Below are positions 22,620 to 58,791 of a stretch of DNA of 64,000 nucleotides, in pieces. The translations under genes were made by a program, and so were the position numbers. The notes under the pieces are model-generated. The model made no database searches. It was not told where the DNA came from and worked only from the letters and a program-made list of their open reading frames with translations. Source of the DNA: a virus; the IMG/VR virus record IMGVR_UViG_3300024350_000006. One strand, written 5' to 3'. Each line of letters begins with the position of its first letter. The stretch's first letter is position 1.

Positions 22620-24392
22620 ATGATATTTGCTGTTTTTACTTTAATAACGGCTTTAACCATTTCAGCCGTGGCTGCCTACTATAGTATAGTAGGCCTTACT
22701 GCTATTTTCTCTGCGGCAGTAATACCTATCATCATTATGGGTGCCAGTCTAGAAGTTGGTAAGGTTGTGGCAGCGGTCTGGTTAAAGTTAAACTGGCAAC
22801 GTGCCAAATTGACCTATAAACTCTATCTGGTACCAGCTGTGGCTTTTTTGATGCTGTTAACCAGTATGGGTATTTTTGGTTTCCTAAGTAAAGCACACAG
22901 CGACCAAAGTTTAGTATCTGGTGATGCTATCAGCAAGGTCGCCATCTACGATGAAAAAATTAACACCGAAAAGGAAAATATCAATCAGGCCAAAAAAGCA
23001 CTGGAGCAGATGAACGCTCAAGTAGATCAGATGTTAAGTAGAACTGACAGTGAGCGTGGTACTGAACGTGCAGTTGCAGTAAGAAAACAACAGGCCAAGG
23101 AACGTGCAGAACTACAGACCAACATTAATCGTAGCCAGAAAGAAATACAACGATTACAAGCAGAAAGGGCTCCCCTGGCTGCTGAATCTCGAAAAGTCGA
23201 GGCTGAAGTTGGGCCCATCAAATACATTGCTGCTCTACTCTATGGGGATAATCCTGACCAGAATATTCTGGAACGAGCAGTGCGCTGGGTAATTATAATT
23301 ATTGTTCTAGTCTTTGATCCCTTGGCTCTAGTATTGATACTGGCAGCACAACAGAGCTTTAACTGGGCTAGAGAAGACAAGGCACGGCAGCAGGAAGAAG
23401 CTTTGAAAAAGTCCAATGAGGACGAAAAAACCGAACTGGGAGATAAATCGCAAGAGGAATCTCATACGGCGAAGGCAGGGGATGGAAACCTGACACCTCA
23501 AGAAGACACTGTTGCCAGTGAACAAGAATTTTTTGATCGTAGTAAACTAGTAGCTAGGGCTCTAGATCTAGAAGATGAACAACAAAGAGCAGAACAAGCT
23601 AATCAGGCCTTGAGTGAAATACCAGCCGAGGAAGTTCTAGTTGATCTAGCCCCAGAACCGTCATCCACTGCTTATCCGGCCGATGATGGTGTTCTTAGCG
23701 CAGCACAACTGGAACAGATCAAGCAGTCCGTGGATACAAATGAAGAAATGGCCAGTGATAAACTGGAACTTTCTAACTTAAACACTGTTTTGGAGAAACA
23801 ACAAGAACAGGAAAAAGAAGTTATTACGCCCAGTCTTACTCAGCAAGTAGAAATGGAATTCGAGCAGGATCAAGCCAAGGAGGAAGAAAAGTCTGTTGAA
23901 GTGGCACAAGTTATAGAGGACAAGCCACCACCTCCCCAGCCTGACACCAGTCCGGCAGAATCAGTTAAAATTAAAAAAATGGAAGGCGGTTACTGGGACG
24001 TAAACAGCAAGATAATGAGCACCGAGGTACTCAGTGTAACCAATCCTGAATTATATAAAAAGTATGTGCTTGAGGCAGACAATGTAGACGCTGAGGACAT
24101 AACTAGTGGTTTTGGTACTAGTTTTCCACATCAACCACGTCGTGGAGATATGTTTCTAAGAGTGGACTACCAACCAAACAAATTATTTAAATTTAATGGC
24201 GTTAAATGGATAGAAATAAATAAAGACAGTACCAACGTTTACGCCTATGACGAACAGTATCTAAATTTCCTAATTGAAAAATTACGTTCGGGGGAATATG
24301 ATCTAGATCAGCTTTCGGAAACAGAACGTGAACTTGTAGAAAATAAACTCAATAATATTGTACATCAAGAAAGTAAAAATGACAACACCTAA
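22620..24392 (+). CDS. Membrane-anchored coiled-coil protein
   Basis: 3 N-terminal TM segments, coiled coil, a further TM (VFDPLA), acidic linker. Confidence 0.7.
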   Translation: MIFAVFTLITALTISAVAAYYSIVGLTAIFSAAVIPIIIMGASLEVGKVVAAVWLKLNWQRAKLTYKLYLVPAVAFLMLLTSMGIFGFLSKAHSDQSLVSGDAISKVAIYDEKINTEKENINQAKKALEQMNAQVDQMLSRTDSERGTERAVAVRKQQAKERAELQTNINRSQKEIQRLQAERAPLAAESRKVEAEVGPIKYIAALLYGDNPDQNILERAVRWVIIIIVLVFDPLALVLILAAQQSFNWAREDKARQQEEALKKSNEDEKTELGDKSQEESHTAKAGDGNLTPQEDTVASEQEFFDRSKLVARALDLEDEQQRAEQANQALSEIPAEEVLVDLAPEPSSTAYPADDGVLSAAQLEQIKQSVDTNEEMASDKLELSNLNTVLEKQQEQEKEVITPSLTQQVEMEFEQDQAKEEEKSVEVAQVIEDKPPPPQPDTSPAESVKIKKMEGGYWDVNSKIMSTEVLSVTNPELYKKYVLEADNVDAEDITSGFGTSFPHQPRRGDMFLRVDYQPNKLFKFNGVKWIEINKDSTNVYAYDEQYLNFLIEKLRSGEYDLDQLSETERELVENKLNNIVHQESKNDNT

Positions 24393-41227: not shown

Positions 41228-42538
41228 ATGCAAGATAAATTTGATAGTCAACCCGGGGAATACTATTGCGTGATGCCCTGGCACGGTGCATTCTATACTA
41301 GTAACGGAATGGGGGCCTGTTGTAGCTGGGGTGATTTAGAAAAAACTACTCCAATGAAATTTCTTCAAGGTGAAAACCTAAAAAGAGTAAAAACACAGAT
41401 GCTTAATGGACAAGTTCCTAAAGAATGTAACTACTGCCACGAGCAAGAGCAAAACGGATTTTACAGTACAAGAAATCTTTATCGCGATCACGTCAAGTCC
41501 AAGAGATGGTTCGAACCTAGTCGTAGTCTAGAATTTAAAACTCCTGAAGTCCTAGAAGTTAGATTCAGCAATCTATGTAATATGCAATGTCGTATTTGTA
41601 GTCCAGACTGGAGTCACTTAATAGGTAGAGAAGTTCAAGAATCAGACAATAACGTTCTTAAAAGATTTTATGCAGTATCTAGTAAAAAAGTAAATGAAGA
41701 TCCACTGCAAGAGATACCTGATGAAAGTGTTAGTGAAATAATAGAACTAGCCAAGAAAGCCAACCACGTTTTTATAACAGGTGGTGAACCCACCATACAT
41801 AAACAAACTATACAATTAATTGATACACTAATAGAAACTGGCTGTGCTAAAAAACAAACGCTACATATAAACACAAACTGTAGTGCTATCAATCCCCGAC
41901 TACTACAAAAATTTAAAGAGTTTGATAACATAATTCTCAGCATTAGTATTGATGGCACTGGGGATGTGGCAAATTATCAAAGATACGGCACTAAATGGGA
42001 AGTAGTAGACGCAAACGTTCGTAGTCTGGGGGATCTTAAAAACAACAGTCCTGTGATTTATGGGGATGATGTCACGCATAGTATTATCCACACTGTGAGC
42101 CTGGGAGTTAACCTTGCAGTAAGTGCCTACACAGTACTAGACATTGACACTACAATAAAATACCTTATCGACGTCTGGGACTATTGCAAATTAAGTATAG
42201 GCGTTAGTGTGGTACATTATCCTTTTAATCCTCTGACACTTCGTGGTGAATGTAGAAAACTAGCAGTACGAAAACTAGGGGCGGCAATAGAACTGATACA
42301 GGACAAGATCGCTATAGAACCTAGGTTTGCCTTGTATATAAAAAACAGTGCCAACAGCCTAGAAGAGTTGCAAAAATTGCAACAAGCCTTGGGTCAACCC
42401 GAAGATTCCAGTCTGGAAGCAGTAAGATATTACAATAACTTTATCTACAAGCCCACTTTGGCACTAGACCAAGTAAGAAACCAGAGTTTCGAACAACTCT
42501 TTGGTCTCCCCCTAGATCCACCAATCTTACCAGAATGA
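41228..42538 (+). CDS. Radical SAM protein with N-terminal SPASM/twitch-like Cys motif
   Basis: CNMQCRIC, ITGGEPT, NTN, SIDG; N-terminal CVMPW..ACC..C..C. Confidence 0.9.
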   Translation: MQDKFDSQPGEYYCVMPWHGAFYTSNGMGACCSWGDLEKTTPMKFLQGENLKRVKTQMLNGQVPKECNYCHEQEQNGFYSTRNLYRDHVKSKRWFEPSRSLEFKTPEVLEVRFSNLCNMQCRICSPDWSHLIGREVQESDNNVLKRFYAVSSKKVNEDPLQEIPDESVSEIIELAKKANHVFITGGEPTIHKQTIQLIDTLIETGCAKKQTLHINTNCSAINPRLLQKFKEFDNIILSISIDGTGDVANYQRYGTKWEVVDANVRSLGDLKNNSPVIYGDDVTHSIIHTVSLGVNLAVSAYTVLDIDTTIKYLIDVWDYCKLSIGVSVVHYPFNPLTLRGECRKLAVRKLGAAIELIQDKIAIEPRFALYIKNSANSLEELQKLQQALGQPEDSSLEAVRYYNNFIYKPTLALDQVRNQSFEQLFGLPLDPPILPE

Positions 42539-44793: not shown

Positions 44794-44976
44794 GTGATTA
44801 TGAGTGGGCGTGGATTTATAGCTGAAGAACCCTTGACAGTCTGTGAGTTTTGCGGCAAAATAGATGAATGTCGGCCCTACGGTCCAAATGATGAACAAAT
44901 ATGTTTTGAATGTGGAATGCAGGACGAAGAAACAACAAGAAAAAAGATGATAAAGTATATATTTGGAGAAGAATAA
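44794..44976 (+). CDS. Small zinc-finger protein
   Basis: [20 protein letters not shown]. Confidence 0.65.
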
Positions 44977-44978
44977 AG

Positions 44979-45572
44979 ATGCCGCATTTTGTACCAACAG
45001 TATTAGAAAAAACTTCCAACGGCGAACGTGCCTACGACATTTATAGTCGTCTGCTAAAGGAACGCATTGTGATGCTGGACACTGATGTTAACGAACATTC
45101 AGCCAGCCTTATAGTAGCCCAATTACTTTTTCTAGAAAGCGAAGATAGTGAGAAAGATATTTACTTCTATATTAACAGTCCCGGTGGTGTTGTTACTGCT
45201 GGTATGGCAATCTATGATACTATGCAGTTTATTCGTCCTGATGTTAGCACCATCGTGCTGGGCCAGGCCTGTAGTATGGGCTCGCTCCTTGCACAGGCAG
45301 GCGCTCCTGGTAAACGTAAGATGCTCCCGAATGCTAGACATATGATTCATCAGCCCAGTGGCGGTGCTGGTGGTCAAGCCACAGATATGGAAATTCAGGT
45401 ACGTGAGATTCTTAAAATGAAACGTAACCTGACTGAGATCTACGTAAAGCATAATAGTAGGGGCAAGACCTACGATGAATTAGCTGCTGATATGGAGCGT
45501 GACTTCTTTATGAGCGCACAGGAGGCTGTGGCCTACGGTTTAGTTGACGAGGTAATAGTCGACCGTAAATAA
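44979..45572 (+). CDS. clpP: ATP-dependent Clp protease proteolytic subunit
   Basis: [29 protein letters not shown] (catalytic Ser), [13 protein letters not shown]; start 44979. Confidence 0.96.
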
Positions 45573-45575
45573 AGG

Positions 45576-46856
45576 ATGCCGCTTAAAAATAATTTTTGCT
45601 CTAGCCCGTGGTTCCATATGAAGGTAGGGAACGACGGGTCTTTTCATTTCTGTCGCTGGGGAGAAAATAACAAGAGCACTAGTAATATTAAAAATACTCA
45701 TCCAGTAACGTGGTTCCAGAATAGCACTGAACAAAAAATCCTAAGACAGGGAATGATTAATGGTGTTCAAAATCTAGACTGTCACGGTTGTTATACTATG
45801 GAGTCTCACGGTAAGATAAGCGGCAGACAACGACAACTTTTAAAGACTGGCATACAACTGGATCAGTTTGACAAAACTATGTTATCTAGCCCCTGGTTGT
45901 CTGTGTTTAAAAGATCTGAGAATGGAGACACTGATCAAGTCCCACTGGACTGGCAAATAGATCTAGGAAATTTTTGTAACAGTGCCTGTGTGTTCTGTGT
46001 ACCTGAGTCCAGCAGTAGACTGGCTAGCGAACTACATAAACTTAAAATAATAGATAGTTTGCCTGAGGAAAACTGGAGTAAAAATACCAACCAGCTAGAA
46101 AAATTACTGGATGCGCTGGAAAAAGCAAATAACACAAATAGCCTACGTTATCTGCATTTTATTGGTGGTGAAACTTTAATTATACCAGCCTTTAAGTCTA
46201 TACTGCAAAAAATAACCACCCCCACAACTCTTGGTTTTACTACCAATCTCACTGTCTGGGACGAGGAGATAATAGATCTCCTTTCTCCACATAATGTACA
46301 TCTGGGAGTGAGCCTAGAAACAGTCAGTCCCCTAAATGATTACATAAGGTGGGGTAGTAGACTAGAACAAGTATTGGAAAATTTATCTAGATGGCAAACT
46401 GTGGCACAACAACGCAACTGGATAATGAGTCTACGCATAACCCCCACAGCGTTAAGTATAGGGGAACTAGACTCAGTCTACGAATATGCCTGGCAGAATA
46501 ATCTTCTAGTAGAGAGTTGTAACTTTATACACGAGCCTGCATTTCTAAGACCCAGCGTTCTACCCCTGAGTCTAAGATTACAGGCTAGACACAGACTCAC
46601 CAGCTGGATTAAAAACAAGGACACCGAGCAGGATCACACTGTCATTAACACTAGGGACACAAACAAGACCAAGCAGGTGTTATTACAGGATGCTAGAAGC
46701 TACATAAGTTATCTAAATACAGCACGTGATGAAACCTCACTACTGCCTAGACTTGTAGACTACATTAATAAACTAGAAACTAGCCGCAACAATTGTATAC
46801 TAGACTATCTACCACAATATGCAGACACTTTCCGATCTCACGGCTACTCTAAATGA
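45576..46856 (+). CDS. Radical SAM protein (paralog of 41228)
   Basis: FCSSPW, CNSACVFC, FIGGET, FTTN. Confidence 0.9.
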   Translation: MPLKNNFCSSPWFHMKVGNDGSFHFCRWGENNKSTSNIKNTHPVTWFQNSTEQKILRQGMINGVQNLDCHGCYTMESHGKISGRQRQLLKTGIQLDQFDKTMLSSPWLSVFKRSENGDTDQVPLDWQIDLGNFCNSACVFCVPESSSRLASELHKLKIIDSLPEENWSKNTNQLEKLLDALEKANNTNSLRYLHFIGGETLIIPAFKSILQKITTPTTLGFTTNLTVWDEEIIDLLSPHNVHLGVSLETVSPLNDYIRWGSRLEQVLENLSRWQTVAQQRNWIMSLRITPTALSIGELDSVYEYAWQNNLLVESCNFIHEPAFLRPSVLPLSLRLQARHRLTSWIKNKDTEQDHTVINTRDTNKTKQVLLQDARSYISYLNTARDETSLLPRLVDYINKLETSRNNCILDYLPQYADTFRSHGYSK

Positions 46857-47359: not shown

Positions 47360-47384
47360 AAACGCAGCTCTGCTGCGTTTTTTC
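47360..47384 (+). terminator. Intrinsic terminator
   Basis: AAACGCAGC-tct-GCTGCGTTTTTT. Confidence 0.75.
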
Positions 47385-47467
47385 TATCTTGCTTACAAAC
47401 TAAAACTACTAAATACTAAGATAATGCAGTAAAAATGCACAAGATCTGAACATTTTAAGGTAAAGTT

Positions 47468-48619
47468 ATGCGACTCAGTGAATTTAAAAAAGCCAAAAAA
47501 CGTATGCTAGGGGGATTTGAAGTGACGCCTGTTAATATTGAACAGGATAAAGTTCGAGAAGCTATTAAGCTTAATGCTCCCAGTAAAAAAATAGATCGCG
47601 ATGAACTACAGTCCTATGCTGATAGAATCAAGACCGATACTAAAACCAAACAGGATAAATTCAAGCCTATTATTCACGGCAGCAACATCAAAGCAATAGT
47701 CAAGGACGATGGGGAGACTGAATGGGATCTAGATGATCTAGCCAGTCAGATTACTACAAGGCCCACTAAGTTGCTAGACACGAATGCTAAAATGAAGAAA
47801 AGTCAGGCCGAGGGAGAAATTCTCTACGACCTAACTTTACCTGCACTGGCTGGTATTGTGGTAGATGAAGAAACTGGAGAATTTGTAGAGATAGAAACCT
47901 GTCCGGGTGCTGGAGAATGTCAGTTGTTCTGTTATGCTCGCAAGGGTGGTTATGTTATGTTTCCAGCTAGTTCAATGAGCGCAGCACAGGCTTTAAACTT
48001 CTTGGTAAATGACCCTGAAGGTTATATGGCACTAGCCAATAAAGAAATAACTGCCATTAAGGCTAAGGCAGCTAAAAACAAAATTCGTCTAGCAGTACGC
48101 TGGCACGATGCCGGAGACTTCTTTAGTAAAGAATATCTAGAACTTGCTTTTAACGTTGCACGCCAACATCCTGACGTTAAATTTTATGCCTACACTAAAA
48201 TGGGAGATGTAGTAGCCAGCGCCAACAAACCCAGTAACTTTATTATTAATTTTAGTTCAGGTGCTAAAAGCCGAGAAGTTAAAAAAGTAGAACTACATAG
48301 ACAGGCAGGCAATGTCATCAAGCAGGGTGTCACAGTGCCCAAGAAAATGTTCTTTGATCTAATTGCTCGTGATGGAAATAAACTAATTAAAGATGAAAAA
48401 GGTCGAACACAATTTAAGGATCAGGAAGCATTAGACACATTTAAACTACGTCTGGCTCAGGAATATAACGTAGATCCTGCTAGCATTATTACCTACGATC
48501 AAATGTTAAGTATTCCCGAAGGGCCACAACCTAAATGGAATGTTATTGTGCAACCAGGTGCAGGTGATCGTGCAGCGAATAGACTGGATGTAATTGATAG
48601 TTATTTAATGTTCCACTAA
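47468..48619 (+). CDS. GP88-like (radical-SAM-related) protein with MRLSEF leader
   Basis: TCPGAGECQLFCYARKG, RWHDAGDFFS, FYAYTK. Confidence 0.7.
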   Translation: MRLSEFKKAKKRMLGGFEVTPVNIEQDKVREAIKLNAPSKKIDRDELQSYADRIKTDTKTKQDKFKPIIHGSNIKAIVKDDGETEWDLDDLASQITTRPTKLLDTNAKMKKSQAEGEILYDLTLPALAGIVVDEETGEFVEIETCPGAGECQLFCYARKGGYVMFPASSMSAAQALNFLVNDPEGYMALANKEITAIKAKAAKNKIRLAVRWHDAGDFFSKEYLELAFNVARQHPDVKFYAYTKMGDVVASANKPSNFIINFSSGAKSREVKKVELHRQAGNVIKQGVTVPKKMFFDLIARDGNKLIKDEKGRTQFKDQEALDTFKLRLAQEYNVDPASIITYDQMLSIPEGPQPKWNVIVQPGAGDRAANRLDVIDSYLMFH

Positions 48620-48620
48620 A

Positions 48621-49946
48621 ATGAAAGCAACTGAATTAATTACCGAACAACCTTTTGTACCAGTAAATCGTGGATTTACCTACAAGGGCTATCCCTGTAC
48701 TAAAGATTGTAGTGGGCATATGGCTGGTGATGCCTGGGCGGAGAAAAAAGGTATACAAACAGCCAACCAATGTCCCCCAGGCTGGAGTAACAGTTTCTGG
48801 GAAGGTTGTAAGAGTAACAGTGAATATACAGCTGAAGATCTAGAAGAAGGCCTGCGTGTAGACGTGCCTAATGAGGAATGGCTACAGCGTAAAATAGAAT
48901 ATGCAAAGTCACGAGGAAGAGATAGTTGGGGTGTGCCCTATCGGGGCACCAGCACCGCCTACATTGATGGAGTGATGCTACCAGTAAGCCTACTAAAAAA
49001 TCTTCCTGGTATGCGAGCTGAGCAACAGAATGTACGTCAGGAAGATCTAGAGGCTATAACGAAAATAATGCGGGACACTGGTAAACTTCCTCTGGGCCGC
49101 AGCGGAGAAGAATATCTTCCTTTTATTAATGTAGCCTATAACGGTGAAGCCTGGGTAAATGAGGGTAATCATCGTATTATGGCAGCAGCCCGACTAGGCT
49201 GGGATAGAATGCCAGTTGAGTTAAGATACTTTGATGGTGGAGAAAGAATTAAGTCAGGTCCCCTCTATCCTAAAAAGATAGGACTGGGTGAGCAAGCTAT
49301 AGATGAGATGGCTGGTGATGTTCACGTGGGTGTTGGTCAAGAACTAGCTAGACAGGGTTATGAATACCTAGGTAGTGGAATTGATAAACAGGCCTACCTA
49401 GAACCTGAAACAGGAAAGGTGTTAATAGTATTTGGCTATCGCAAGGGTTTTAAAGATTTTAGTCCGGACCAACGTATGTTTATTAGCTGGATCGATTATT
49501 GCAATAAAAATCAAGACAATCCTCATCTACCTAGATTCAGTGGTTTCGTAAGTTTTAAATTTCAAGGCAAGAATTATATACAGGCTAGGATGGAAGCATT
49601 ACAGGAATTACCTGAATCAGTTGCCTATCTAGTTGGCAATATTGCTGATGCAGTTAAGAAAACTGGTGCTAAAAATTATAAGGAAGCATTCCATAACCTA
49701 GCAATGTGGAGCTCCTACGACAGTTGGGAAGGTGATAATCCTGAACAGTATGATATTAAGAGTGTAATTAAGTATCTAGGCGGAGAAAATAAAGCTATAG
49801 GTTTATTAAAAACAGTTCATAAAGTATCAAAGTTTGCAAAAAAACACGGATATAATATTGATCTTCACCGCGGCAATTATATGCAAAGACCCAATGGTAC
49901 TATTGTAGTAAATGATCCATTTGTTTTATGGATTAAGGGAAGATAA
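48621..49946 (+). CDS. Multidomain protein: Cys-rich domain + ParB/Srx-like domain + protein-kinase-like domain
   Basis: CTKDCSGH; NEGNHRIMAA..LG; YLGSG...DLHRGNYMQR..IVVNDP. Confidence 0.65.
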   Translation: MKATELITEQPFVPVNRGFTYKGYPCTKDCSGHMAGDAWAEKKGIQTANQCPPGWSNSFWEGCKSNSEYTAEDLEEGLRVDVPNEEWLQRKIEYAKSRGRDSWGVPYRGTSTAYIDGVMLPVSLLKNLPGMRAEQQNVRQEDLEAITKIMRDTGKLPLGRSGEEYLPFINVAYNGEAWVNEGNHRIMAAARLGWDRMPVELRYFDGGERIKSGPLYPKKIGLGEQAIDEMAGDVHVGVGQELARQGYEYLGSGIDKQAYLEPETGKVLIVFGYRKGFKDFSPDQRMFISWIDYCNKNQDNPHLPRFSGFVSFKFQGKNYIQARMEALQELPESVAYLVGNIADAVKKTGAKNYKEAFHNLAMWSSYDSWEGDNPEQYDIKSVIKYLGGENKAIGLLKTVHKVSKFAKKHGYNIDLHRGNYMQRPNGTIVVNDPFVLWIKGR

Positions 49947-49949
49947 AAG

Positions 49950-50750
49950 ATGAGAGCTAGTGAGTTTTTAAGATTTTTAAGAGAGTTTGCTCCCGACGGT
50001 TATCAACAATATACACTCTATGTTGGTAGCCCCCGACGACATAAAATTGGTACGTTTGCCAGTGTAGACGATGCTGTAGAAGAAGCGCATTTTTTGTGGA
50101 ACGTTGATCCAAGAGCAGGAACGGACTATTGGACCGTAACAGACTTAAATGATACTGTGGTGTGGTCACACGACCCAGGAGAAGTATATGATCAAATGCG
50201 CAGCGGTAGCAAAATAAAATATCGTAAACCTGATGATCTGAAAGAAACTGATGAACAAGATTTAACTGCTCTTAAAGAGGCTTGTGAGAATTGGATGGAA
50301 ATGTATTTTGATGCCAACGATATCAATACTATTCTTACGCATCCTTATAGTCAAAAGTTTAAGACTCCCGGCACTGATATAGAAAATCTCTATCGTGGAT
50401 TAATAGTCAAAGGTAATAAGTTCAAGGCAGTTCCGAAAAAAAGTAACAGAAAATTTGTGGCTTACGCTACAGATTCTTACGGTGCTGAAGCATTTTTAGC
50501 TAGTCTTGATATTGGTGGTCGACAAGTTATCATTGAAAAAGAGTATCATCCCGAAAATTTTATTTTAGATTTTACAGGTCTCTACGAAAGTTTATTTCCC
50601 GATTTGGGGTATCATAATCGTTACCAGTCAGAATATGAAGTCTGGATGCAGGCTACTCCCTATTATACTTCAGTTGACGAAACAGAAATAATATCAGATA
50701 CTGCCTGGGATGATACTGACGATGGCGAACCTGGAAGAGGAAATTTATAA
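49950..50750 (+). CDS. Two-domain protein with C-terminal ADP-ribosyltransferase-like domain
   Basis: LYRG...AYAT...QSEYEV (R-S-ExE-like arrangement). Confidence 0.5.
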   Translation: MRASEFLRFLREFAPDGYQQYTLYVGSPRRHKIGTFASVDDAVEEAHFLWNVDPRAGTDYWTVTDLNDTVVWSHDPGEVYDQMRSGSKIKYRKPDDLKETDEQDLTALKEACENWMEMYFDANDINTILTHPYSQKFKTPGTDIENLYRGLIVKGNKFKAVPKKSNRKFVAYATDSYGAEAFLASLDIGGRQVIIEKEYHPENFILDFTGLYESLFPDLGYHNRYQSEYEVWMQATPYYTSVDETEIISDTAWDDTDDGEPGRGNL

Positions 50751-50755
50751 AACCT

Positions 50756-52483
50756 ATGCGATACAGTGAACTAAAAGAATTATTTGAGCCTAAACCAGAC
50801 GTCACAATAAACTGGAGCAAAGCCTTCAGTGATGAAAGTAATGCTTCTATAGCGACTCCCTCGGGACAAGCTTTAGAAGTAAATTTTTGGGAGATAAGTC
50901 CTGGTGTTGTATCTATTGATTTTACTGTAAATGAATCACACGAACTCACCAATCACAAGGAAGAGATTGCAGTATTCAACGGTGTTATAAACAGTATACG
51001 AGAATACATCAGTAAACATCCTGTTAAAGATGTTTTGTTTCAGGTTAAAAAAACAGAAGAAGGAAAACGTTTAAGTGCCTACGTCAAAATGGCAGCCCGC
51101 CTAGCCTCCAGTCTGGGCTTCCGTCAGGGTAGCATAGAAGAACTAGAAAGTGTTGACCCTAAACTCTACAGTCGTTTTGACAATCGCTACAGTAAATTGC
51201 TCTGGTACACCAGAAGTGGTGCGCCTAAATTAGATATGCAGGAAGATCGTCATCCCAACGAACGTCCCTACGGGCCAGAATCTAGACCCACAATGCCAGC
51301 GGGAACAGTAAGAGTGGATGTCAGTGATGTCTATGATTGGTATAAACTAGGTCAACATATAAGTGATCTAGAAGGTCTAGGTCATCACGATTTTGGCAAA
51401 GGCCCTCCCAGTACTATTTTAAGTTTTGGTAGTGAAGAGGAAGAACACAAATATATTGGTAATCTAGAAAAAATAGGACTAACAACTACAGACATAGATC
51501 CAGTTGATCCCAAACAACCAAAAGGTATGAAGCGCCAGAAGACTGACCCAACCTATAATGTAAATGAAGGAAAAGTTATTGGTGCCAATCAGCTGGTTAA
51601 TGTCTACATCCGAGGTAAGCACAAGGGAGAAAGCTATAGTAAATTAATTGCACAAGATTTTCCCAACAAACACATTGATCAGCTTATACAAAAATTAGTG
51701 GATAAACATAATGTCAATCCCAATGCCATAGTCTATGGGATTCCTGGCCAGGATCTAGAAGAGGACTGGAAAAGTGCTATTGCCAAGGGTGCTCTAGCAG
51801 GTGCAGTGGCACTTGGTGGCGCAGCACAGGCCAAGGCGCCAGCCAATCCCTATCAGAGTTACACTAATGATCCCATAGCACAGATTATACAAAAACGTCA
51901 GGACGAATTAAGTGCCAAGGATAAAAAAACTATTCAACAGGTCACACAACACGTGGCCCAGGCTAAAAAATCTCCCGAGGTAAAAAAGACAAAAGAAACT
52001 CCCTACCAACCTATCACAGGTAGTAAACTAGAAACTAGTCTATATAATTTTGCAAAAAAACTTGGCCTTAAAGGCACTGAGCTGGCAGCATTTATGGCGC
52101 AGACTGCTCACGAGACTGATTATTTTAAAACACTGAGTGAATACAGCAGTGGTGAACAATATGAAGGAAGAAAAGATCTTGGTAACATCTATAAAGGCGA
52201 TGGTGTTAAGTATAAGGGAAGAGGTTTTATACAGATTACTGGTCGCTATAATTACACGCAGGCAGCCAAAGATCTAGGTATTGATCTAGTTAAGCATCCT
52301 GAACTAGCGGAACGCCCAGACGTTGCTGCCAAAGTAACCTGGTGGTACTGGAAAAATCGTGTACGTCCTAATGTAGCAAGTTTTGCTGATGTTAAACAAG
52401 TAACCAAACAGATTAATCCTGCTCTGCGTGGGCTGGAAAAACGCCGACAGTTTACTAAAGATTTTAAGATAGCACAAAAATAA
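50756..52483 (+). CDS. Multidomain protein with C-terminal GH19 (chitinase/lysozyme-like) domain
   Basis: AAFMAQTAHET, YEGRKDLGN, GDGVKYKGRGFIQITGRYNY, VTKQIN. Confidence 0.85.
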   Translation: MRYSELKELFEPKPDVTINWSKAFSDESNASIATPSGQALEVNFWEISPGVVSIDFTVNESHELTNHKEEIAVFNGVINSIREYISKHPVKDVLFQVKKTEEGKRLSAYVKMAARLASSLGFRQGSIEELESVDPKLYSRFDNRYSKLLWYTRSGAPKLDMQEDRHPNERPYGPESRPTMPAGTVRVDVSDVYDWYKLGQHISDLEGLGHHDFGKGPPSTILSFGSEEEEHKYIGNLEKIGLTTTDIDPVDPKQPKGMKRQKTDPTYNVNEGKVIGANQLVNVYIRGKHKGESYSKLIAQDFPNKHIDQLIQKLVDKHNVNPNAIVYGIPGQDLEEDWKSAIAKGALAGAVALGGAAQAKAPANPYQSYTNDPIAQIIQKRQDELSAKDKKTIQQVTQHVAQAKKSPEVKKTKETPYQPITGSKLETSLYNFAKKLGLKGTELAAFMAQTAHETDYFKTLSEYSSGEQYEGRKDLGNIYKGDGVKYKGRGFIQITGRYNYTQAAKDLGIDLVKHPELAERPDVAAKVTWWYWKNRVRPNVASFADVKQVTKQINPALRGLEKRRQFTKDFKIAQK

Positions 52484-52486
52484 GAT

Positions 52487-53515
52487 ATGCGAGCAAACGA
52501 ATTTTTAACTGAATTATTCGATCTCCAAACAGCATTCGAACTGGAATGGGACGATAGTTTTGCTCCTGAGGAATACCACGCCCTGGCCTACGACCGCCAG
52601 GGCAGAACTATTAACATAAGTTTTGTGCCTATTGGTGCCGATGCAGTGGACATTGAATTTACTCGTGGAGGCAGTCACGATGTCACAGGACGTGGTGATG
52701 CTGAACGAGTGTTTGCCACTGTAATAAAAGCAATAGCAACTTACCTAGAAGAATATCGCCAACCTTCCTATGTACTTTTTAGTGGTAAAGAAACAAGTAG
52801 AAATAAATTGTATCAGAGTTTGGTCGTTAGATATGCAGCTGGTTTTGGATATGAGGTAACTTCTCAAGAAAAGTTGCCGGAAGAATTACGCAGTATGTCA
52901 CTACCTAAAGATGTTTTTATATTATCTAAAAAAGCAATAACAGAAGTAATCAACACTAAACAAATCGAACCTGACTTTCATCTAGAGAAAGAGATTGACC
53001 TTGACGGCGTAGGTACATTAAAATTAGTGGCTGACAATCTTAAAGAGTGGCCCAGTGTTCCACAGTTTACAGTTAAAGTATTTTTACCCACAGGAGAAAA
53101 TATTGGCTATTTTAGATTTGTGGTGATGGACTACGAGCCTGAACCAAGGTTCAAGATGTTTGCTAAAAAAACTGATCCCTACGTTATAGGCGGTAATGTT
53201 AATGTCTGGAGTGAGTACCGACGTCGCGGTATAGCCAGTGCTGTCTATAAATGGGTCAAGAGCTGGGGGAACGATATTAGACCTAGTACTACACAGACTG
53301 ATGCTGGTAGAGCAATGTGGCGCGGTCTAGAGCGCAACCTAGCGGAAAACTTCAAGGACGGAAAAAATCCCGGACGTAAAGGATTAGCCAAACGCAGTGG
53401 TGTTAATTGTAAAGCCAGTGTGAGTACTCTCCGCCGCGTGGCAAAAAATAGTAGCGGCGAAAAACAACGTATGGCTCACTGGTGTGCAAATATGAAAGCA
53501 GGACGTAAAAAATGA
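52487..53515 (+). CDS. Multidomain protein with GNAT acetyltransferase-like domain and basic C-terminal module
   Basis: V.SEYRRRGIASAVY...QTDAGRAMW; N-domain paralogous to that of 50756. Confidence 0.65.
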   Translation: MRANEFLTELFDLQTAFELEWDDSFAPEEYHALAYDRQGRTINISFVPIGADAVDIEFTRGGSHDVTGRGDAERVFATVIKAIATYLEEYRQPSYVLFSGKETSRNKLYQSLVVRYAAGFGYEVTSQEKLPEELRSMSLPKDVFILSKKAITEVINTKQIEPDFHLEKEIDLDGVGTLKLVADNLKEWPSVPQFTVKVFLPTGENIGYFRFVVMDYEPEPRFKMFAKKTDPYVIGGNVNVWSEYRRRGIASAVYKWVKSWGNDIRPSTTQTDAGRAMWRGLERNLAENFKDGKNPGRKGLAKRSGVNCKASVSTLRRVAKNSSGEKQRMAHWCANMKAGRKK

Positions 53516-54174
53516 AAGCCTCCGAGTTTATATCCGAGGGTAGAAATACACCAGTAATTGTGGTAGACGTTCAGCCCGAATATTCTGGAATACTTGACGG
53601 TGATGAAAATCCAGTGTTTGGTGAGATAATTAAGTTTGTAAACAATCAAACAGGACCTGTGTTAATGTTTGTTAATGCAGAACGAGATGGACTTACAGGG
53701 GACACTATTAATGATGTGTTATCCTACTGGGAAGAAACTATAGCAGAAGAAGATCCCAATTGGTATGATGACAATCCCTTCGCTCCTAGAAGTCCCATAA
53801 ACTGGAATCGTTTTCACATTGTAGACAAAGGGTATGGTTGGTTTAGACCCTGGATGGATCAAGGTGTACAACCTAAATTTATCATACAATTAATTCGTTA
53901 TATGTATCAACATAAACTTAACGATATACGCGATGATATAGAAGGCGTCTATGAATATATGACTCACAATCCCATTGGCGGACAAATAATTGACTGGCAA
54001 GACTGGATGGAAGATGAATCTTTCGTAATTAACTGGACCAGTGTAGCACAACTAAAAAAATTTAGTGGTTCCTACATCGTGGGTGGTGGCAGGCAAGAAT
54101 GTCTTCGTGAAGTTGAACTACTAATGAACGCATTTAATATTAAATACAAACGTATAGACAGTTTGGTCTACTAA
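53512..54174 (+). CDS. Isochorismatase/cysteine-hydrolase-like protein
   Basis: IVVDVQP, DKGYG, VGGGRQECL. Confidence 0.55.
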   Translation: MKASEFISEGRNTPVIVVDVQPEYSGILDGDENPVFGEIIKFVNNQTGPVLMFVNAERDGLTGDTINDVLSYWEETIAEEDPNWYDDNPFAPRSPINWNRFHIVDKGYGWFRPWMDQGVQPKFIIQLIRYMYQHKLNDIRDDIEGVYEYMTHNPIGGQIIDWQDWMEDESFVINWTSVAQLKKFSGSYIVGGGRQECLREVELLMNAFNIKYKRIDSLVY

Positions 54175-54184
54175 GAGAACAATA

Positions 54185-54784
54185 ATGAAATCCAGTGAAT
54201 TTACCCGTAAACCTCGTAAGCTAGTCATTTTTGACATAGATGACACCCTAGTACATACTCAGACCAAGGTTAAAGTTATACGTGACGGTGAGGTAGTTAG
54301 AGAACTTAATAGTCATCAGTTTACACATTACAAACTAGCACCAGGTGAGAGTTTTGATTTTGGTGCTTTTAGAAGTGCTAGAGAATTCTTTCATCATAGT
54401 CAGCCCATAGTACCTATGATCAAACAGCTTCGCGACGACATCGCCACAGGCAATCGTGTGGCAATGGTCACAGCACGTGAAGATTTCGACGATAAAGAAA
54501 TATTTTTAAAAACATTTGAAAAGTGGAACGTGGATATGAATCGTGTCCACGTTCATCGTGCTGGAAATCTAAAAGGCCCCGAGGGCATACACGACAAAAA
54601 GAAGATTATTATACGTAAGTTACTGGACAGCGAAGATTTTACTAAAGCTATTATGTACGACGACAGTGTACCAAATTTAAAATCCTTTCTGGAACTCAAA
54701 CAGGAGTACCCGGATACAAGTTTTTATGCCTGGCACGTGGACCAAAGTGGTAGCACACACGAACTAGCCCGCGCCAAAGAATAA
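54185..54784 (+). CDS. HAD-superfamily phosphatase
   Basis: IFDIDDTL, MVTAR, K, YDDS. Confidence 0.85.
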   Translation: MKSSEFTRKPRKLVIFDIDDTLVHTQTKVKVIRDGEVVRELNSHQFTHYKLAPGESFDFGAFRSAREFFHHSQPIVPMIKQLRDDIATGNRVAMVTAREDFDDKEIFLKTFEKWNVDMNRVHVHRAGNLKGPEGIHDKKKIIIRKLLDSEDFTKAIMYDDSVPNLKSFLELKQEYPDTSFYAWHVDQSGSTHELARAKE

Positions 54785-54843
54785 ACCAGCTTGACATTTA
54801 TAACATCTGGTGCTAGACTGGGCTTTTCAGTCAAGGCGGCACT

Positions 54844-55215
54844 ATGTTAACGAAATCACAACTAGCCCTACTAACCATTCTGGTCTGCAATCTTGCAGCG
54901 GCGCAGGAACAGGCCTGTCGCTGGGAAGAAGTAACTGTGATATTACCACCAAAAGTCTATCACGCCAGTCCGGCGGCAGGCACCACACAACAAGGTCTTA
55001 GAGAAGAAGCCTATTGTGAAACTCTGCCCAAGGATCAGTTAAACTGGCGTGCCTATCAAAAATGTGTAAGTGAAGCCTACGTGCGCGATGCTGAGCGTCG
55101 TACTGCCACACAGGGGCGACCTGTTTCTGAAGTTATTAGAACTAGACGCTGTGTGCCTATACAATCTGGTGATGTTAATGCCAAGACAGAAAATCTAGAC
55201 CGGCTGAGTGAATAA
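54844..55215 (+). CDS. Secreted hypothetical protein
   Basis: Signal peptide; promoter TTGACA-N17-TAGACT at 54791-54819. Confidence 0.6.
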   Translation: MLTKSQLALLTILVCNLAAAQEQACRWEEVTVILPPKVYHASPAAGTTQQGLREEAYCETLPKDQLNWRAYQKCVSEAYVRDAERRTATQGRPVSEVIRTRRCVPIQSGDVNAKTENLDRLSE

Positions 55216-55621
55216 AATGCAGATCATTGATCACGATTCTAGAAATCGTTTAGTAAATTCCGGCATTAGTTTTATGCAAACCATAACAGACATCTATGGT
55301 GCCGAGAAAGGAATGCAGCTTTGGGAAGTAATTGCAGACACTGTTAGTCCAGATCTTAAAGGTGACATCTTTATGGCCTTGCTCACAGGTAATTACCATC
55401 AGGATAGAATTCACGTTAGACAACCTTTTCAAGGACCAATGGCTAGCAAAGTAAGTCTTATCAAGTGTATTAGAAATTACGATAAAAGAAGACTGGGACT
55501 TAAAGAAGCCAAAGACATTGCTGACAGCCTGGAAACTGGAGCTATACAGGTATTAGAAGTACAGCCCGAGATACGATCCACCTTTGTTGTTGAACTACGT
55601 AAACTGGGTATGGTTATTTAA
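55208..55621 (+). CDS. Protein with C-terminal ribosomal bL12 (L7/L12) CTD-like domain
   Basis: KVSLIKCIRN...LGLKEAKDIAD resembles bL12 KxxVIKxVRxxxGLGLKEAKDLVE. Confidence 0.7.
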   Translation: MNKMQIIDHDSRNRLVNSGISFMQTITDIYGAEKGMQLWEVIADTVSPDLKGDIFMALLTGNYHQDRIHVRQPFQGPMASKVSLIKCIRNYDKRRLGLKEAKDIADSLETGAIQVLEVQPEIRSTFVVELRKLGMVI

Positions 55622-57483: not shown

Positions 57484-57675
57484 ATGAAAGTAGTCTGGGT
57501 TTTAGTAGTATTAGTCTTTGCAGATGGTGAATGGCGTGAATGGAACAGTTATTCACGTCGCGAAGAGTGTGAGGAAATAATACCGGTACTAACACATCAT
57601 CGAGAAAATCAACTACAGGCTATATGCCAACCAAGGCAAGTAGACAAACAATATGAAATTAAAAGAGATAATTGA
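57484..57675 (+). CDS. Small secreted protein
   Basis: VWVLVVLV...C....C pattern shared with 58030..58221. Confidence 0.55.
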   Translation: MKVVWVLVVLVFADGEWREWNSYSRREECEEIIPVLTHHRENQLQAICQPRQVDKQYEIKRDN

Positions 57676-58030
57676 ATCTGCAGATGGAATTTTTAACAAG
57701 ATTCTAACTCACGAGACCACCCCTGAGGCTGCACGCCAAATCCGGGCTAGGGGTTTTGCACAACCTAGATTTGGACAGGGTATTTTCTTTAATGCCCAGG
57801 GTCTAAGCTACAGTGGTGGCGGTTACGGCGGCGCCGAGGTACAGGCTCAGATAATCGGACCCAGCAAGGGAATTTTAAACCTAGAAGACGATGATAATTT
57901 ACCACTAGATCTTGATGAGTATGCCGACGGCGAAGAAATAGCCCGTTATGCTCGTAAAAAAGGTTACTGGGCCTGGACAGATGGTATGCAGTTTGTGGTA
58001 TTGCACAGTAGATACATCAAGGTGTTATAA
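57653..58030 (+). CDS. Possible ADP-ribosyltransferase-like domain with MKLKEIIE leader
   Basis: LTHETT....I.ARGF....FGQGIFF resembles H-Y-E-clade ART N-termini. Confidence 0.45.
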   Translation: MKLKEIIESADGIFNKILTHETTPEAARQIRARGFAQPRFGQGIFFNAQGLSYSGGGYGGAEVQAQIIGPSKGILNLEDDDNLPLDLDEYADGEEIARYARKKGYWAWTDGMQFVVLHSRYIKVL

Positions 58031-58239: not shown

Positions 58240-58268
58240 TTGACATTAGCTATATGAGCTGCTACAAT
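58240..58268 (+). promoter_or_regulatory. Sigma70 promoter for the bfd-like/tmRNA unit
   Basis: TTGACA-N17-TACAAT. Confidence 0.75.
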
Positions 58269-58307
58269 TATAGCCTAGATAGGTTATTTTTTATATAGGT
58301 AACTGAT

Positions 58308-58457
58308 TTGATAATTTGTATTTGTCGTAACATAAAAGAATCTGATTTTGAAACAAAAGAGGAAATGATCCAACGCATAATGCAGCTGGATCACAACTGC
58401 GGACAGTGCCAAGAGTATGTCCAAAAGTTAAAAGAATTGTTGTATGAAGTTGAATGA
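58308..58457 (+). CDS. Bfd-like [2Fe-2S] ferredoxin (49 aa, TTG start, not in track)
   Basis: MIICICRNI...HNCGQC: CxC...CGxC ligand set. Confidence 0.65.
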   Translation: MIICICRNIKESDFETKEEMIQRIMQLDHNCGQCQEYVQKLKELLYEVE

Positions 58458-58733
58458 AAGGTGTTCTGGACCCCGGTTCGACCCCGGGCAGGTCCACCAG
58501 AAGCATTCTCCTCAAGTATCTGATGACAATCGTTCAGGGGACGAGAAAGAGTTTAGAGTGCTTCTGATGGGCCTGAATTTGGTTTCGACAGGGCACGGAG
58601 TAAGGATATGGACAACACGGTAGGCGATCTCCGTAAAAGAAGCAAATCTATAACTGCAAACGCAGCTAATGACGAGGTCTTTGCTCTAGCAGCATAACCT
58701 CTGGGGCAACTATGCCTTATTACCCAAAATAGT
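58458..58733 (+). ncRNA. ssrA: Circularly permuted (two-piece) tmRNA
   Basis: T-arm CCCGG-TTCGAC-CCCGGG and CAGGTCC-A-CCA (ends 58499) precede the 5' acceptor strand GGGCCTG (58569-58575); G3.U70 pair; tag frame 58656-58697 ANAANDEVFALAA*; 5' boundary approximate. Confidence 0.93.
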
Positions 58734-58759
58734 ATAGGGACTTCGGTCCCTATTTTTTT
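58734..58759 (+). terminator. tmRNA terminator
   Basis: ATAGGGAC-TTCG-GTCCCTAT-TTTTTT. Confidence 0.88.
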
Positions 58760-58791
58760 GAATAAATACTGTAACAAATGCCCAGACCTAA

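What the first reader, a model, noticed from the sequence alone, without database searches (positions are those of the whole stretch)
47468..54784. Late cluster of putative capsid-packaged polyproteins with T4 CTS-like leaders and internal L/I/V-x-E linkers
Seen: seven consecutive genes begin MRLSEF, MKATELITE, MRASEFLRFLRE, MRYSELKE, MRANEFLTE, MKASEFISE, MKSSEF (plus MKLKEIIE at 57653), although their bodies are unrelated. TAAATA lies upstream (47267, 47410). Apparent domain boundaries coincide with short acidic motifs: DLEE| and AIDE| (48621); DLKE| (49950); DMQE|, NVNE|, DLEE| (50756); AITE|, NLAE| (52487). Two linkers share DNA (GATCTAGAAGA at 48837 and 51752). Established: T4 internal proteins use the capsid-targeting sequence MKTYQEFIAE, prohead protease gp21 cuts after (I/L)-x-E, and T4 Alt is a packaged, injected ADP-ribosyltransferase. 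Inference: a modular payload of ParB-like, kinase-like, ART-like, GNAT, GH19, cysteine-hydrolase, HAD and GP88-like domains is loaded into the head, cut into separate enzymes and delivered with the DNA.
Basis: partly seen in the sequence, partly recalled or inferred. Interest (0 to 1): 0.82.

Follow-up and report, generated by a model that had tools for sequence, protein, structure and literature searches.

The report
Head-addressed, protease-jointed phage cargo polyproteins
An uncultured T4-like jumbo phage puts one short T4-style "load me into the capsid" tag on seven neighbouring, otherwise unrelated genes, and joins their enzyme modules by head-protease cutting motifs, at which related phages swap the modules; so the products are probably packed into the head, cut apart and delivered with the DNA, but no cut or packaging has been measured.

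Summary
The peptide M-[KR]-x-x-E-[FLI] occurs 8 times in all six frames of the window. All 8 are + strand gene starts: the seven consecutive genes 47468-54784, plus 57653.

The tag is widespread in relatives. Its consensus is M-R-A-x-E/D-F-I-x-E, against MKTYQEFIAE for the T4 capsid targeting sequence. It heads 164 of 1481 ORFs in 80 related viral contigs and 365 distinct N-termini overall.

- Nine unrelated modules begin right after a Glu, whether that Glu ends the N-terminal tag in one phage or an internal linker in another.
- Kinase-like module: P1 is E in 76/76 contexts and P3 is L/V/I in 74/76.
- 55-residue basic module: P1 is E in 155/155.
- AlphaFold places the linkers in low-confidence segments between folded domains.

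All seven near-complete related genomes (236-358 kb) encode a T4 gp21-type prohead protease. The window's own genome could not be searched.

Packaging, cleavage and injection remain inferred. The ADP-ribosyltransferase and cysteine-hydrolase labels are unverified.

I found no paper on tag-led polyproteins. This scan has already reported the same architecture on other phage DNA. I class it as a new variant of T4 internal-protein loading.

The parts
47360..47417 (+). Terminator-like hairpin (47360-47380) followed by a TAAATACT motif (47410-47417). This is the likely start of the transcription unit.
   Evidence: The same motif lies 27-32 nt before structural-type genes at 9141 and 17166.
47468..48619 (+). 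Gene 1 (383 aa). It has the leader MRLSEF, a basic N-terminal stretch, a predicted junction VRE31|AIKLN (E31 codon at 47558-47560), then a GP88-family body.
   Evidence: Pfam GP88 E 1e-34. In relatives the body follows N-terminal extensions of 21 to 1217 residues, mostly joined by V/L/I-x-E|A(I/L)KLN.
48621..49946 (+). Gene 2 (441 aa). Leader MKATELITE|, Cys-rich module (residues 10-76), junction DLEE76|, ParB/sulfiredoxin-fold module (77-229), junction AIDE229|, protein-kinase-fold module (230-441).
   Evidence: AlphaFold low-confidence segments at 1-37, 55-82 and 206-230. Sulfiredoxin match Z 9.3, kinase match Z 9.5. Stand-alone forms exist: MRAQEFITE|GKLSVDV and MRASEFTTE|MAG. Kinase-module junction statistics.
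49950..50750 (+). Gene 3 (266 aa). Leader MRASEFLRFLRE|, N-terminal module (13-99), junction DLKE99|, then a module with invariant R50, S86 and E129-x-E131 (module numbering; possible ADP-ribosyltransferase).
   Evidence: Stand-alone relatives start MRARDFIKE|D..DL..LKEAC. Fused relatives continue after GRGNL with SE|. Invariant residues. Only a weak ADP-ribosyltransferase lead, and none by PDB profile.
50756..52483 (+). Gene 4 (575 aa). Leader MRYSELKE(LFE)|, DUF6934/GNAT-like-fold module (12-163), junction DMQE163|, conserved module DRHPNE...TYNVNE (164-271), junction NVNE271|, small module (272-336), junction DLEE336|, hydrophobic helix plus GH19 muramidase (337-575).
   Evidence: AlphaFold low-confidence segments at 1-8, 156-164, 270-274 and 339-371. 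GH19 match Z 19.4, GNAT-like match Z 7-8. Junction statistics.
52487..53515 (+). Gene 5 (342 aa). Leader MRANEFLTE|, DUF6934 module (10-153), junction AITE153|, GNAT-like module (154-287), junction NLAE287|, 55-residue basic two-Cys module NFKDGKNPGRKG... (288-342).
   Evidence: Pfam DUF6934 and weak GNAT. The basic module occurs in 1801 representative clusters and is always preceded by x-x-E.
53512..54174 (+). Gene 6 (220 aa). Leader MKASEFISE|, then a single module (possibly isochorismatase-like).
   Evidence: In G001 the same module is internal, preceded by QDLAE|GLSHP. The family lead is weak only.
54185..54784 (+). Gene 7 (199 aa). Leader MKSSEF without a following Glu, then a HAD-like phosphatase (FDIDDT motif at residues 16-21).
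   Evidence: phrog_415 E 8e-8 and Pfam Hydrolase E 0.01. Relatives fuse further modules after TVE|NFADG.
57653..58030 (+). Outlying eighth gene (125 aa) with the leader MKLKEIIE|.
   Evidence: No family found.

Best explanation
The seven genes form one cargo locus of a T4-like jumbo phage.

Proposed mechanism:
1. Each product carries a roughly 9-residue N-terminal address tag (M-R/K-x-x-E-F/L-I/L-x-E). Like the T4 capsid targeting sequence MKTYQEFIAE, the tag docks the protein onto the scaffolding core of the assembling prohead.
2. The gp21-type prohead protease then cuts after Glu in hydrophobic-x-Glu motifs. This removes the tag and separates the modules of the multi-module proteins.
3. The freed pieces stay in the head and enter the cell with the DNA. 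They include a ParB/sulfiredoxin-fold protein, a protein-kinase-fold protein, GNAT-like proteins, a helix-anchored GH19 muramidase, a GP88 protein, a HAD-like phosphatase and a 55-residue basic peptide.

Because tag and joints are generic, modules can be fused, split and exchanged at the joints. The relatives show exactly this.

Shown: the tag, its spread, the module swapping at Glu joints, the domain edges, and the protease in relatives. Inferred: docking, cutting, retention in the head and injection.
For: (1) All 8 occurrences of the tag in six frames are gene starts, and 7 are consecutive.

(2) A logo of 365 distinct N-termini gives M, R/K, A 54%, x, E/D, F/I/L, I/L/V, x, E 63%. Of the 231 with E9, 217 have a hydrophobic residue at position 7. 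This keeps T4's F7, I8 and E10. Of these, residues 7, 8 and 10 were shown to matter for targeting (7) and processing (8, 10) (PMC9026906; sequence from bioRxiv 10.1101/2021.01.19.427310).

(3) Nine non-homologous modules start directly after a Glu, whether that Glu is the leader's last residue or an internal linker.

(4) Junction statistics:
- Kinase-like module: P1 is E in 76/76 contexts and P3 is L/V/I in 74/76, across at least 10 different upstream domains.
- Basic module: P1 is E in 155/155 and P3 is V/L/M/I/F in 131/155.
- Helix+GH19 module: P1 is E in 14/14 and P3 is L/V/I in 13/14.
- The TYNV-x-E end of the conserved module is followed by more than 20 different sequences.

(5) Two AlphaFold models place all five inter-domain linkers at these sites. 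Eight of 19 hydrophobic-x-E sites lie in the 14.7% of residues with pLDDT below 50 (p = 0.0035).

(6) A Peptidase_S77 (T4 gp21) homologue is found in 7 of 7 related genomes that are at least 90% complete.

(7) G001 has the T4 head-gene order: portal, gp67-like, gp68-like, protease, scaffold, major capsid protein. Its protease N-terminus YLRE|N aligns with T4's LLIE|T. Its capsid-protein site YLKE|NASAG aligns with T4's FLTE|AEIGG.

(8) G001 has a syntenic cargo locus at 64-74 kb with the same modules recombined.

(9) The basic module also exists as a 62-64-residue gene made of tag plus module. The same mature peptide can therefore arise from a polyprotein only if the joint is cut.

(10) A TAAATA element precedes head and tail genes and cargo genes alike.
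Against: - There are no proteomic, expression or biochemical data.
- The window's own genome is not held, so its protease was not seen.
- Genes 47468 and 54185 lack a Glu at positions 7-12. In 54185 the catalytic DxDxT motif starts at residue 16, so that tag may not be removed.
- At the start of the DRHPNE module, P3 is often T, A or K. The invariant Glu before some modules could belong to the module itself.
- The strict tag is absent from cultured relatives that share the protease (PA5oct, Vibrio phage 2.275.O, Phosso) and from the related genome G004. It is therefore lineage-specific, and no virion proteome covers it.
- The GH19 protein could instead be an ordinary membrane-tethered endolysin.
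Confidence: 0.65

Rival explanations
1. The proteins are tagged and loaded, but only the N-terminal tag is removed, or nothing is cut. The multi-module proteins act as intact multidomain (polyvalent) effectors. The Glu-ending linkers are relics of gene fusion between neighbouring tagged genes.
For: The linker KAITE|VINTK of gene 52487 aligns with the leader MRIHE|LVNTK of a stand-alone relative, which looks like a fused former leader. The genes are separated by only 1-10 nt, so small deletions would fuse them. In related giant phages the processing of homologous head proteins varies (PMC5694885).
Against: The joints keep hydrophobic-x-E across hundreds of diverged contexts. A neutral relic would not be maintained like this. 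Most linkers do not otherwise resemble leaders. The basic module also occurs as a tag-plus-module mini-gene, which implies a free peptide as the functional form.
Confidence: 0.17
2. The tag is not a capsid address. It serves another purpose, such as translation start efficiency, protein stability, or another targeting or recognition step in the infected cell. The proteins would be ordinary intracellular multidomain enzymes whose domains are shuffled at acidic linkers.
For: There is no direct evidence of packaging. Shine-Dalgarno sequences before several of the genes are poor, so a start-region effect is conceivable. The domain types (kinase, GNAT, HAD, lysozyme) also occur in non-virion phage proteins.
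Against: Conservation is in the peptide, with free synonymous variation. The tag reproduces the functional residues of the T4 capsid targeting sequence and ends in the protease motif. The same motif marks the protease and capsid-protein maturation sites of a relative. No replication or metabolic housekeeping enzyme carries the tag in G001.
Confidence: 0.12
3. Cleavage after Glu occurs but is carried out outside the capsid by another protease, for example the phage ClpP encoded just upstream at 44910-45572 or a host enzyme.
For: A genuine ClpP gene lies 1.9 kb upstream of the cluster.
Against: The adjacency is not conserved. In G001 the ClpP homologue is at 186-782 and the cargo locus is at 64-74 kb. 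ClpP degrades processively and, from general knowledge, is not specific for Glu. The motif matches the gp21 family.
Confidence: 0.04

Closest known systems
Phage T4 internal proteins IPI, IPII, IPIII and Alt: capsid targeting sequence plus gp21 processing (PMC3012670, PMC9026906, PMC5694885)
   Same: A short shared N-terminal leader sits on otherwise unrelated proteins. The leader ends in hydrophobic-x-Glu (T4: EFIAE|; Alt: ITE-6 and LTE-619). A gp21-family protease and a T4 head-gene order are present in relatives. The cargo is diverse and evolves fast.
   Different: The leader is one residue shorter, with R-A at positions 2-3. The cargo bodies have no homology to T4 internal proteins or Alt. 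Many cargoes are chains of 2-4 modules here, and up to more than 1000 residues in relatives, with internal joints. Seven tagged genes form one operon-like locus. Nothing has been tested experimentally.
Polyvalent proteins of phages and conjugative elements (Iyer et al. 2017, PMC5512222)
   Same: Unrelated effector domains (ParB-type, GNAT, lysozyme, kinases/nucleotidyltransferases, toxin-type domains) are strung together in phage late regions. They are predicted to be packaged and injected, and possibly processed into separate products.
   Different: Those proteins are built around a zincin-like metallopeptidase or virion RNA polymerase and are proposed to process themselves. No such peptidase was detected here. 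Processing would instead be by the prohead protease at a generic joint, with a generic N-terminal address tag.
Inner-body and ejection proteins of phiKZ, 201phi2-1 and SPN3US, cut by gp175/gp245 (PMC5694885, PMC9026906)
   Same: Many head-internal proteins of giant phages are cut after Glu by a distant gp21 homologue. Paralogues share conserved N-terminal propeptides. One mature ejection protein (SPN3US gp47) begins with a transmembrane helix, as module 337-575 of gene 50756 would.
   Different: In those phages P3 is small (S/A/G-x-E or A-x-E) and the propeptides are often more than 100 residues long. Here P3 is L/V/I/M and the tag is about 9 residues, as in T4.

Membership tests
T4-type capsid-targeted internal proteins (capsid targeting sequence plus gp21 processing) | A short N-terminal leader shared by proteins whose bodies are unrelated | tested here: met
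   There are 8 of 8 motif occurrences at gene starts. The bodies belong to different families or folds.
T4-type capsid-targeted internal proteins (capsid targeting sequence plus gp21 processing) | The leader ends in a hydrophobic-x-Glu site matching the prohead protease | tested here: met
   Six of 8 window leaders meet this (ITE9, LRE12, LKE8/LFE11, LTE9, ISE9, IIE8). Genes 47468 and 54185 do not. In the wider set, 217 of 231 leaders with E9 have a hydrophobic residue at position 7.
T4-type capsid-targeted internal proteins (capsid targeting sequence plus gp21 processing) | The phage encodes a gp21-family (Peptidase_S77) prohead protease and a T4-type head module | tested here: inconclusive
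   Present in 7 of 7 near-complete relatives, with the T4 gene order in G001. The window's own genome is not held and the head module is not in the window.
T4-type capsid-targeted internal proteins (capsid targeting sequence plus gp21 processing) | The proteins are found in virions with processed N-termini and are injected | not testable with these tools
   The phage is uncultured, and no cultured phage in the collection carries the strict tag.
Polyvalent proteins (Iyer et al. 2017) | Several unrelated effector domains in one polypeptide of a phage | tested here: met
   Genes 48621, 49950, 50756 and 52487 have 2-4 modules each.
Polyvalent proteins (Iyer et al. 2017) | Linked zincin-like metallopeptidase or virion RNA polymerase core | tested here: inconclusive
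   No peptidase or polymerase family was detected by Pfam, PHROGs or NCBIfam. Several modules have no assigned fold.
phiKZ-type inner-body proteins | Cleavage motif with a small P3 residue (S/A/G-x-E) | tested here: not met
   P3 is L/V/I in 74/76 contexts, V/L/M/I/F in 131/155 and L/V/I in 13/14.
Glycoside hydrolase family 19 (module 415-575 of gene 50756) | Sequence and fold match to GH19 muramidases/chitinases | tested here: met
   Pfam PF00182 E 4.8e-12. Z 19.4, rmsd 2.1 over 150 residues to 7r6s_B.
ADP-ribosyltransferase (module 100-266 of gene 49950) | Recognisable ADP-ribosyltransferase family or fold with an R-S-ExE triad | tested here: inconclusive
   R50, S86 and E129-x-E131 (module numbering) are invariant. 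There is a weak Atlas lead to DRAT at score 0.92, rank 26. There is no Pfam hit and no PDB profile hit.

The most novel reading that the evidence does not exclude
A large clade of uncultured T4-like jumbo phages may use a generic plug-in cargo system. A 9-residue address tag and protease-cut joints would let any module be loaded into the capsid and released as a separate protein. Modules seen include kinase, HicA, Zeta-type kinase, Pol-beta nucleotidyltransferase, ParB/sulfiredoxin, GNAT, deaminase and GH19.

The system would include a near-invariant 55-residue basic two-Cys peptide, found in at least 1801 protein clusters. This peptide may be the DNA-associated internal protein of these heads.
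Probability: 0.5. Interest if true: 0.8.

Novelty: new variant of a known kind. Interest (0 to 1): 0.68.

Why it matters
If true, capsid loading by a T4-style address tag is not a peculiarity of T-even phages. It would be a widespread, modular delivery system in environmental jumbo phages.

The system would define, from sequence alone, a large catalogue of proteins that enter the cell ahead of gene expression. These are candidate anti-defence and host-takeover factors.

It would also explain how such cargo evolves: modules are fused, split and swapped at generic protease joints.

It gives directly testable predictions, namely exact new N-termini after named Glu residues. It also offers a natural set of tags and joints for engineering protein delivery by phage capsids.

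Tried and rejected
Searches for close or cultured relatives:
- Megablast of the region against GenBank phages found nothing.
- tblastn of gene 52487 and of the basic module against phages found nothing. Gene 47468 matched only distant GP88 proteins.
- The strict leader pattern is absent from PA5oct, Vibrio phage 2.275.O, Phosso and G004. A looser pattern is not enriched in the cultured phages.
- The second PA5oct hit is not an annotated start and has no mass-spectrometry note. No published virion proteome could therefore be brought to bear.

Access to the window's own genome:
- No whole genome is held for the window.
- An exact 36-mer from the window is not in IMG/VR.

Family and fold assignment:
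- Pfam and NCBIfam on single modules were mostly empty.
- A PDB profile search for the putative ADP-ribosyltransferase module gave only chance-level hits.
- A PDB sequence search for the HAD module gave only E 0.48.

Ideas rejected:
- The canonical T4 late promoter TATAAATA is not enriched: 4 matches against 6.9 expected.
- ClpP as the processing enzyme is rejected because the adjacency is not conserved.
- DNA-level homology of the leaders as a recombination sequence is rejected because synonymous sites vary freely.
- The third copy of GATCTAGAAGA (23565) lies in an acidic low-complexity stretch of an unrelated membrane protein and looks like shared codon use for D-L-E-D/E.

No complex prediction was run.


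Full report
**Observation**

ORF listing shows seven tightly packed + strand genes (47468-48619, 48621-49946, 49950-50750, 50756-52483, 52487-53515, 53512-54174, 54185-54784). They start MRLSEF, MKATELITE, MRASEFLRFLRE, MRYSELKE, MRANEFLTE, MKASEFISE and MKSSEF. An eighth gene, 57653-58030, starts MKLKEIIE.

A six-frame scan of the whole window for M[KR]xxE[FLIVM] finds exactly eight sites, all of them these starts. Shuffled sequence gives 2.4 on average, at random places. None of about 80 other ORFs starts this way. Codons vary between copies, so selection acts on the peptide.

The genes are 1-10 nt apart. The cluster follows a terminator-like hairpin (47360-47380) and a TAAATACT motif at 47410. 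The same 8-mer lies 27-32 nt before the starts at 6788, 9141, 17166 and 58792. The canonical TATAAATA is not enriched.

**What the phage is**

There is no nucleotide match among GenBank phages. Protein-based searches of IMG/VR found 155 and 473 related loci. Many come from contigs of 236-358 kb.

The window shares 30-78% amino-acid identity and partial gene order with G001, a 352,754-bp contig with terminal repeats.

All seven related genomes that are at least 90% complete encode a Peptidase_S77 (T4 gp21) homologue above the Pfam cut-off. Three fragments of 34-47% completeness lack it, which says nothing.

In G001 the protease sits in the T4 gene order: portal, gp67-like, gp68-like, protease, scaffold, major capsid protein (221.6-227.5 kb). 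This is collinear with Pseudomonas phage PA5oct. The nearest cultured proteases are those of jumbo phages Phosso, Vibrio 2.275.O, PA5oct, SCTP-2 and CBB.

I read the T4 sequences from the T4 record and aligned them with G001.
- The G001 protease N-terminus MALYLRE|NLTF aligns with T4 gp21 MNEPQLLIE|TWGQ, the self-cleavage site.
- The G001 capsid-protein site YLKE|NASAG aligns with T4 gp23 FLTE|AEIGG, the maturation site.
So this lineage appears to keep the T4 rule "hydrophobic-x-Glu, then cut".

**The leader**

In the first 80 related loci, 164 of 1481 ORFs start with the motif. Pooling all proteins collected gives 365 distinct leader N-termini.

The logo is M97, R69/K30, A54, x, E70/D29, F59/I22/L15, I44/L19/V8, x, E63 (percentages). 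Positions 3, 7 and 9 were not used for selection. Of 231 leaders with E9, 217 have a hydrophobic residue at position 7.

The T4 capsid targeting sequence is MKTYQEFIAE (bioRxiv 10.1101/2021.01.19.427310). Mutational work located targeting mainly at residues 4 and 7, and processing at residues 8 and 10 (PMC9026906). The F-I-x-E core is the same here, one residue closer to the Met.

Variant leaders (MKINDIITE, MLLRELFE, MNLFEMFE) occur in other lineages. They recall T4 gp24 MAKINELLRE| and Alt MELITE| (PMC5694885).

A strict DNA pattern for the leader finds 7 sites in G001 and none in its reversed control. It finds none in G004, PA5oct, Vibrio phage 2.275.O or Phosso. The tag is therefore lineage-specific, and no published virion proteome covers it.

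**The joints**

Comparison with relatives shows that they are module boundaries, and that the Glu is positionally equivalent to the last Glu of a leader. In each pair below, the first form is from the window unless stated.

| Module | Internal junction | Junction directly after a leader |
|---|---|---|
| ParB/sulfiredoxin-fold | DLEE\|GLRVDV | G001 MRAQEFITE\|GKLSVDV |
| Kinase-like | AIDE\|MAGDVHV | L061 MRASEFTTE\|MAGVINV |
| DRHPNE...TYNV | DMQE\|DRHPNER | L037 MRAREFIRKIE\|DQHPNEK |
| Helix + GH19 | DLEE\|DWKSA | L017 ...DQLDE\|DLPAW (leader-led relative); L061 TYNVDE\|DWKSAL (internal) |
| Gene 53512 body | G001 QDLAE\|GLSHP | window MKASEFISE\|GRNTP |
| DUF6934 | L006 TYNVNE\|AFDQPYP | L061 EFIIE\|AFDQPYN |
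| Basic module | NLAE\|NFKDGK | L048 MRAREFISE\|NFADGK |
| WSxKYK module | L040 VLPE\|KWSDKYK | L033 EFISE\|KWSEKYK |
| Gene 49950 C-terminal module | DLKE\|TDEQDL | MRARDFIKE\|DRDDL |

The GP88 body follows N-terminal extensions of 21 to 1217 residues. They are mostly joined by V/L/I-x-E|A(I/L)KLN.

Larger samples give the same picture.
- Among 120 homologues of gene 48621, the kinase-like module has 76 distinct upstream contexts. These include HicA, a Pol-beta nucleotidyltransferase and DUF6934; a Zeta-toxin-type P-loop kinase domain also occurs in one homologue. P1 is E in 76/76, P3 is L/V/I in 74/76, and P2 is mostly D or E.
- The 55-residue basic module matches 1801 representative clusters out of 1.84 billion proteins. 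In the best 150, P1 is E in 155/155 and P3 is V/L/M/I/F in 131/155. The module is 74-98% identical although the proteins come from different 50%-identity clusters.
- For gene 50756, the helix+GH19 module has P1 E in 14/14 and P3 L/V/I in 13/14. The end of the conserved module, NV-x-E|, is followed by more than 20 different sequences. Its start has P1 E in 73/75, but P3 is often T, A or K.

**Structure**

The AlphaFold model of gene 48621 (mean pLDDT 73.7) has low-confidence segments at 1-37, 55-82 and 206-230. It has folded domains at 83-205 and 231-441.
- The first domain matches sulfiredoxin (Z 9.3, rmsd 2.1, 81 of 89 residues).
- The second matches protein kinases (Z 9.5; Foldseek probability 1.0).

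The model of gene 50756 (mean pLDDT 73.5) has low-confidence segments at 1-8, 156-164, 270-274 and 339-371.
- Residues 12-155 have a GNAT-like fold (Z 7-8, modest).
- Two small domains follow.
- Residues 415-575 are a GH19 muramidase (Z 19.4).

All five inter-domain linkers end in one of the quoted sites. Eight of 19 hydrophobic-x-E sites fall in the 14.7% of residues with pLDDT below 50 (binomial p = 0.0035).

After a cut at E336, the GH19 piece would start with a hydrophobic helix. The mature SPN3US ejection protein gp47 starts in the same way (PMC5694885).

**Locus conservation**

G001 has a syntenic locus at 64-74 kb with tagged genes at 64466, 70297, 71792, 72854, 73336 and 73911, plus a 1087-residue chain at 67037. 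It holds the same modules in other combinations.

TAAATA elements lie just upstream of the G001 portal gene, the gp67-like and gp68-like genes, a tail gene, and the cargo genes 64466 and 67037.

None of the tagged G001 proteins is a recognisable housekeeping enzyme.

The ClpP gene next to the window's cluster is not linked to the cargo locus in G001.

**Interpretation**

The most economical reading is the T4 internal-protein mechanism extended to chains of modules. The tag docks the proteins on the scaffolding core. The prohead protease removes the tag and cuts the joints. Small pieces stay with the DNA and are ejected.

One argument for real cutting is product equivalence. The basic module, the ParB-fold module, the kinase-like module and the gene 49950 C-terminal module each exist as "tag plus module" genes. 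In other phages they are internal segments that begin at the very same residue.

**Caveats**
- There are no experimental data of any kind.
- Two leaders lack the distal Glu.
- Some invariant Glu residues may belong to the modules themselves.
- At least one linker (AITE153) looks like a fused former leader, so fusion history contributes to the pattern.
- The ADP-ribosyltransferase label rests only on an invariant R/S/ExE pattern and a weak Atlas lead. The isochorismatase label rests on another weak Atlas lead.

**Comparison with the literature**

T4 capsid targeting and gp21 processing are textbook knowledge (PMC3012670, PMC9026906, PMC9958956). Alt is cut at ITE-6 and LTE-619 (PMC5694885).

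Polyvalent proteins were predicted to be packaged multi-effector chains, but with their own metallopeptidase (PMC5512222, PMC7824862).

Full-text searches found no paper describing tag-led, protease-jointed polyproteins in T4-like jumbo phages.

This scan itself has already reported the same architecture in several other genomes, and another tagged cluster elsewhere in this genome. This window is thus a further, well-documented instance rather than a first sighting.

Noticed in passing
window 53348-53512 (gene 52487 residues 288-342): A 55-residue basic module with two Cys (NF[AK]DGK.PGRKG...HW..NM..G.KK) is 74-98% identical across proteins that are otherwise less than 50% identical. It occurs in 1801 representative clusters, mostly at the C-terminus, and also as a 62-64-residue gene of its own. 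It matches no family. It may be a DNA-associated internal peptide.
   Followed up: partly
L033 9914-10270; G001 54208-55248; several loci: A second recurrent small basic Cys module (WS.KYK.SINC.NPKGFSQ.AHC.GRKK) sits directly after leaders or Glu joints, often just before the basic module above.
   Followed up: no
proteins P0018, P0074, P0006, P0112 (relatives of gene 48621): In relatives the kinase-like module is joined to HicA toxin, a Pol-beta nucleotidyltransferase or a Zeta-toxin-type P-loop kinase domain, so toxin-type domains occur in this cargo repertoire.
   Followed up: partly
window 9114, 17137, 6756, 58763, 47410: TAAATACT lies 27-32 nt (58 nt for 47410) before + strand gene starts, including two very large structural-type genes. 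This may be the late-promoter core of this phage.
   Followed up: partly
window 44910-45572 and 41228-42538, 45576-46856: A cellular-type ClpP protease gene and two radical-SAM genes lie just upstream of the cargo cluster. The ClpP homologue is not linked to the cargo locus in G001.
   Followed up: partly
window 22620-24392: A 590-residue protein with N-terminal transmembrane helices has a long acidic low-complexity middle part. That part holds the third copy of GATCTAGAAGA. Only its first 256 residues are conserved in G001.
   Followed up: no
window 58240-58760: Earlier notes of this scan describe a permuted two-piece tmRNA here, downstream of the outlying tagged gene 57653. I did not examine it.
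   Followed up: no
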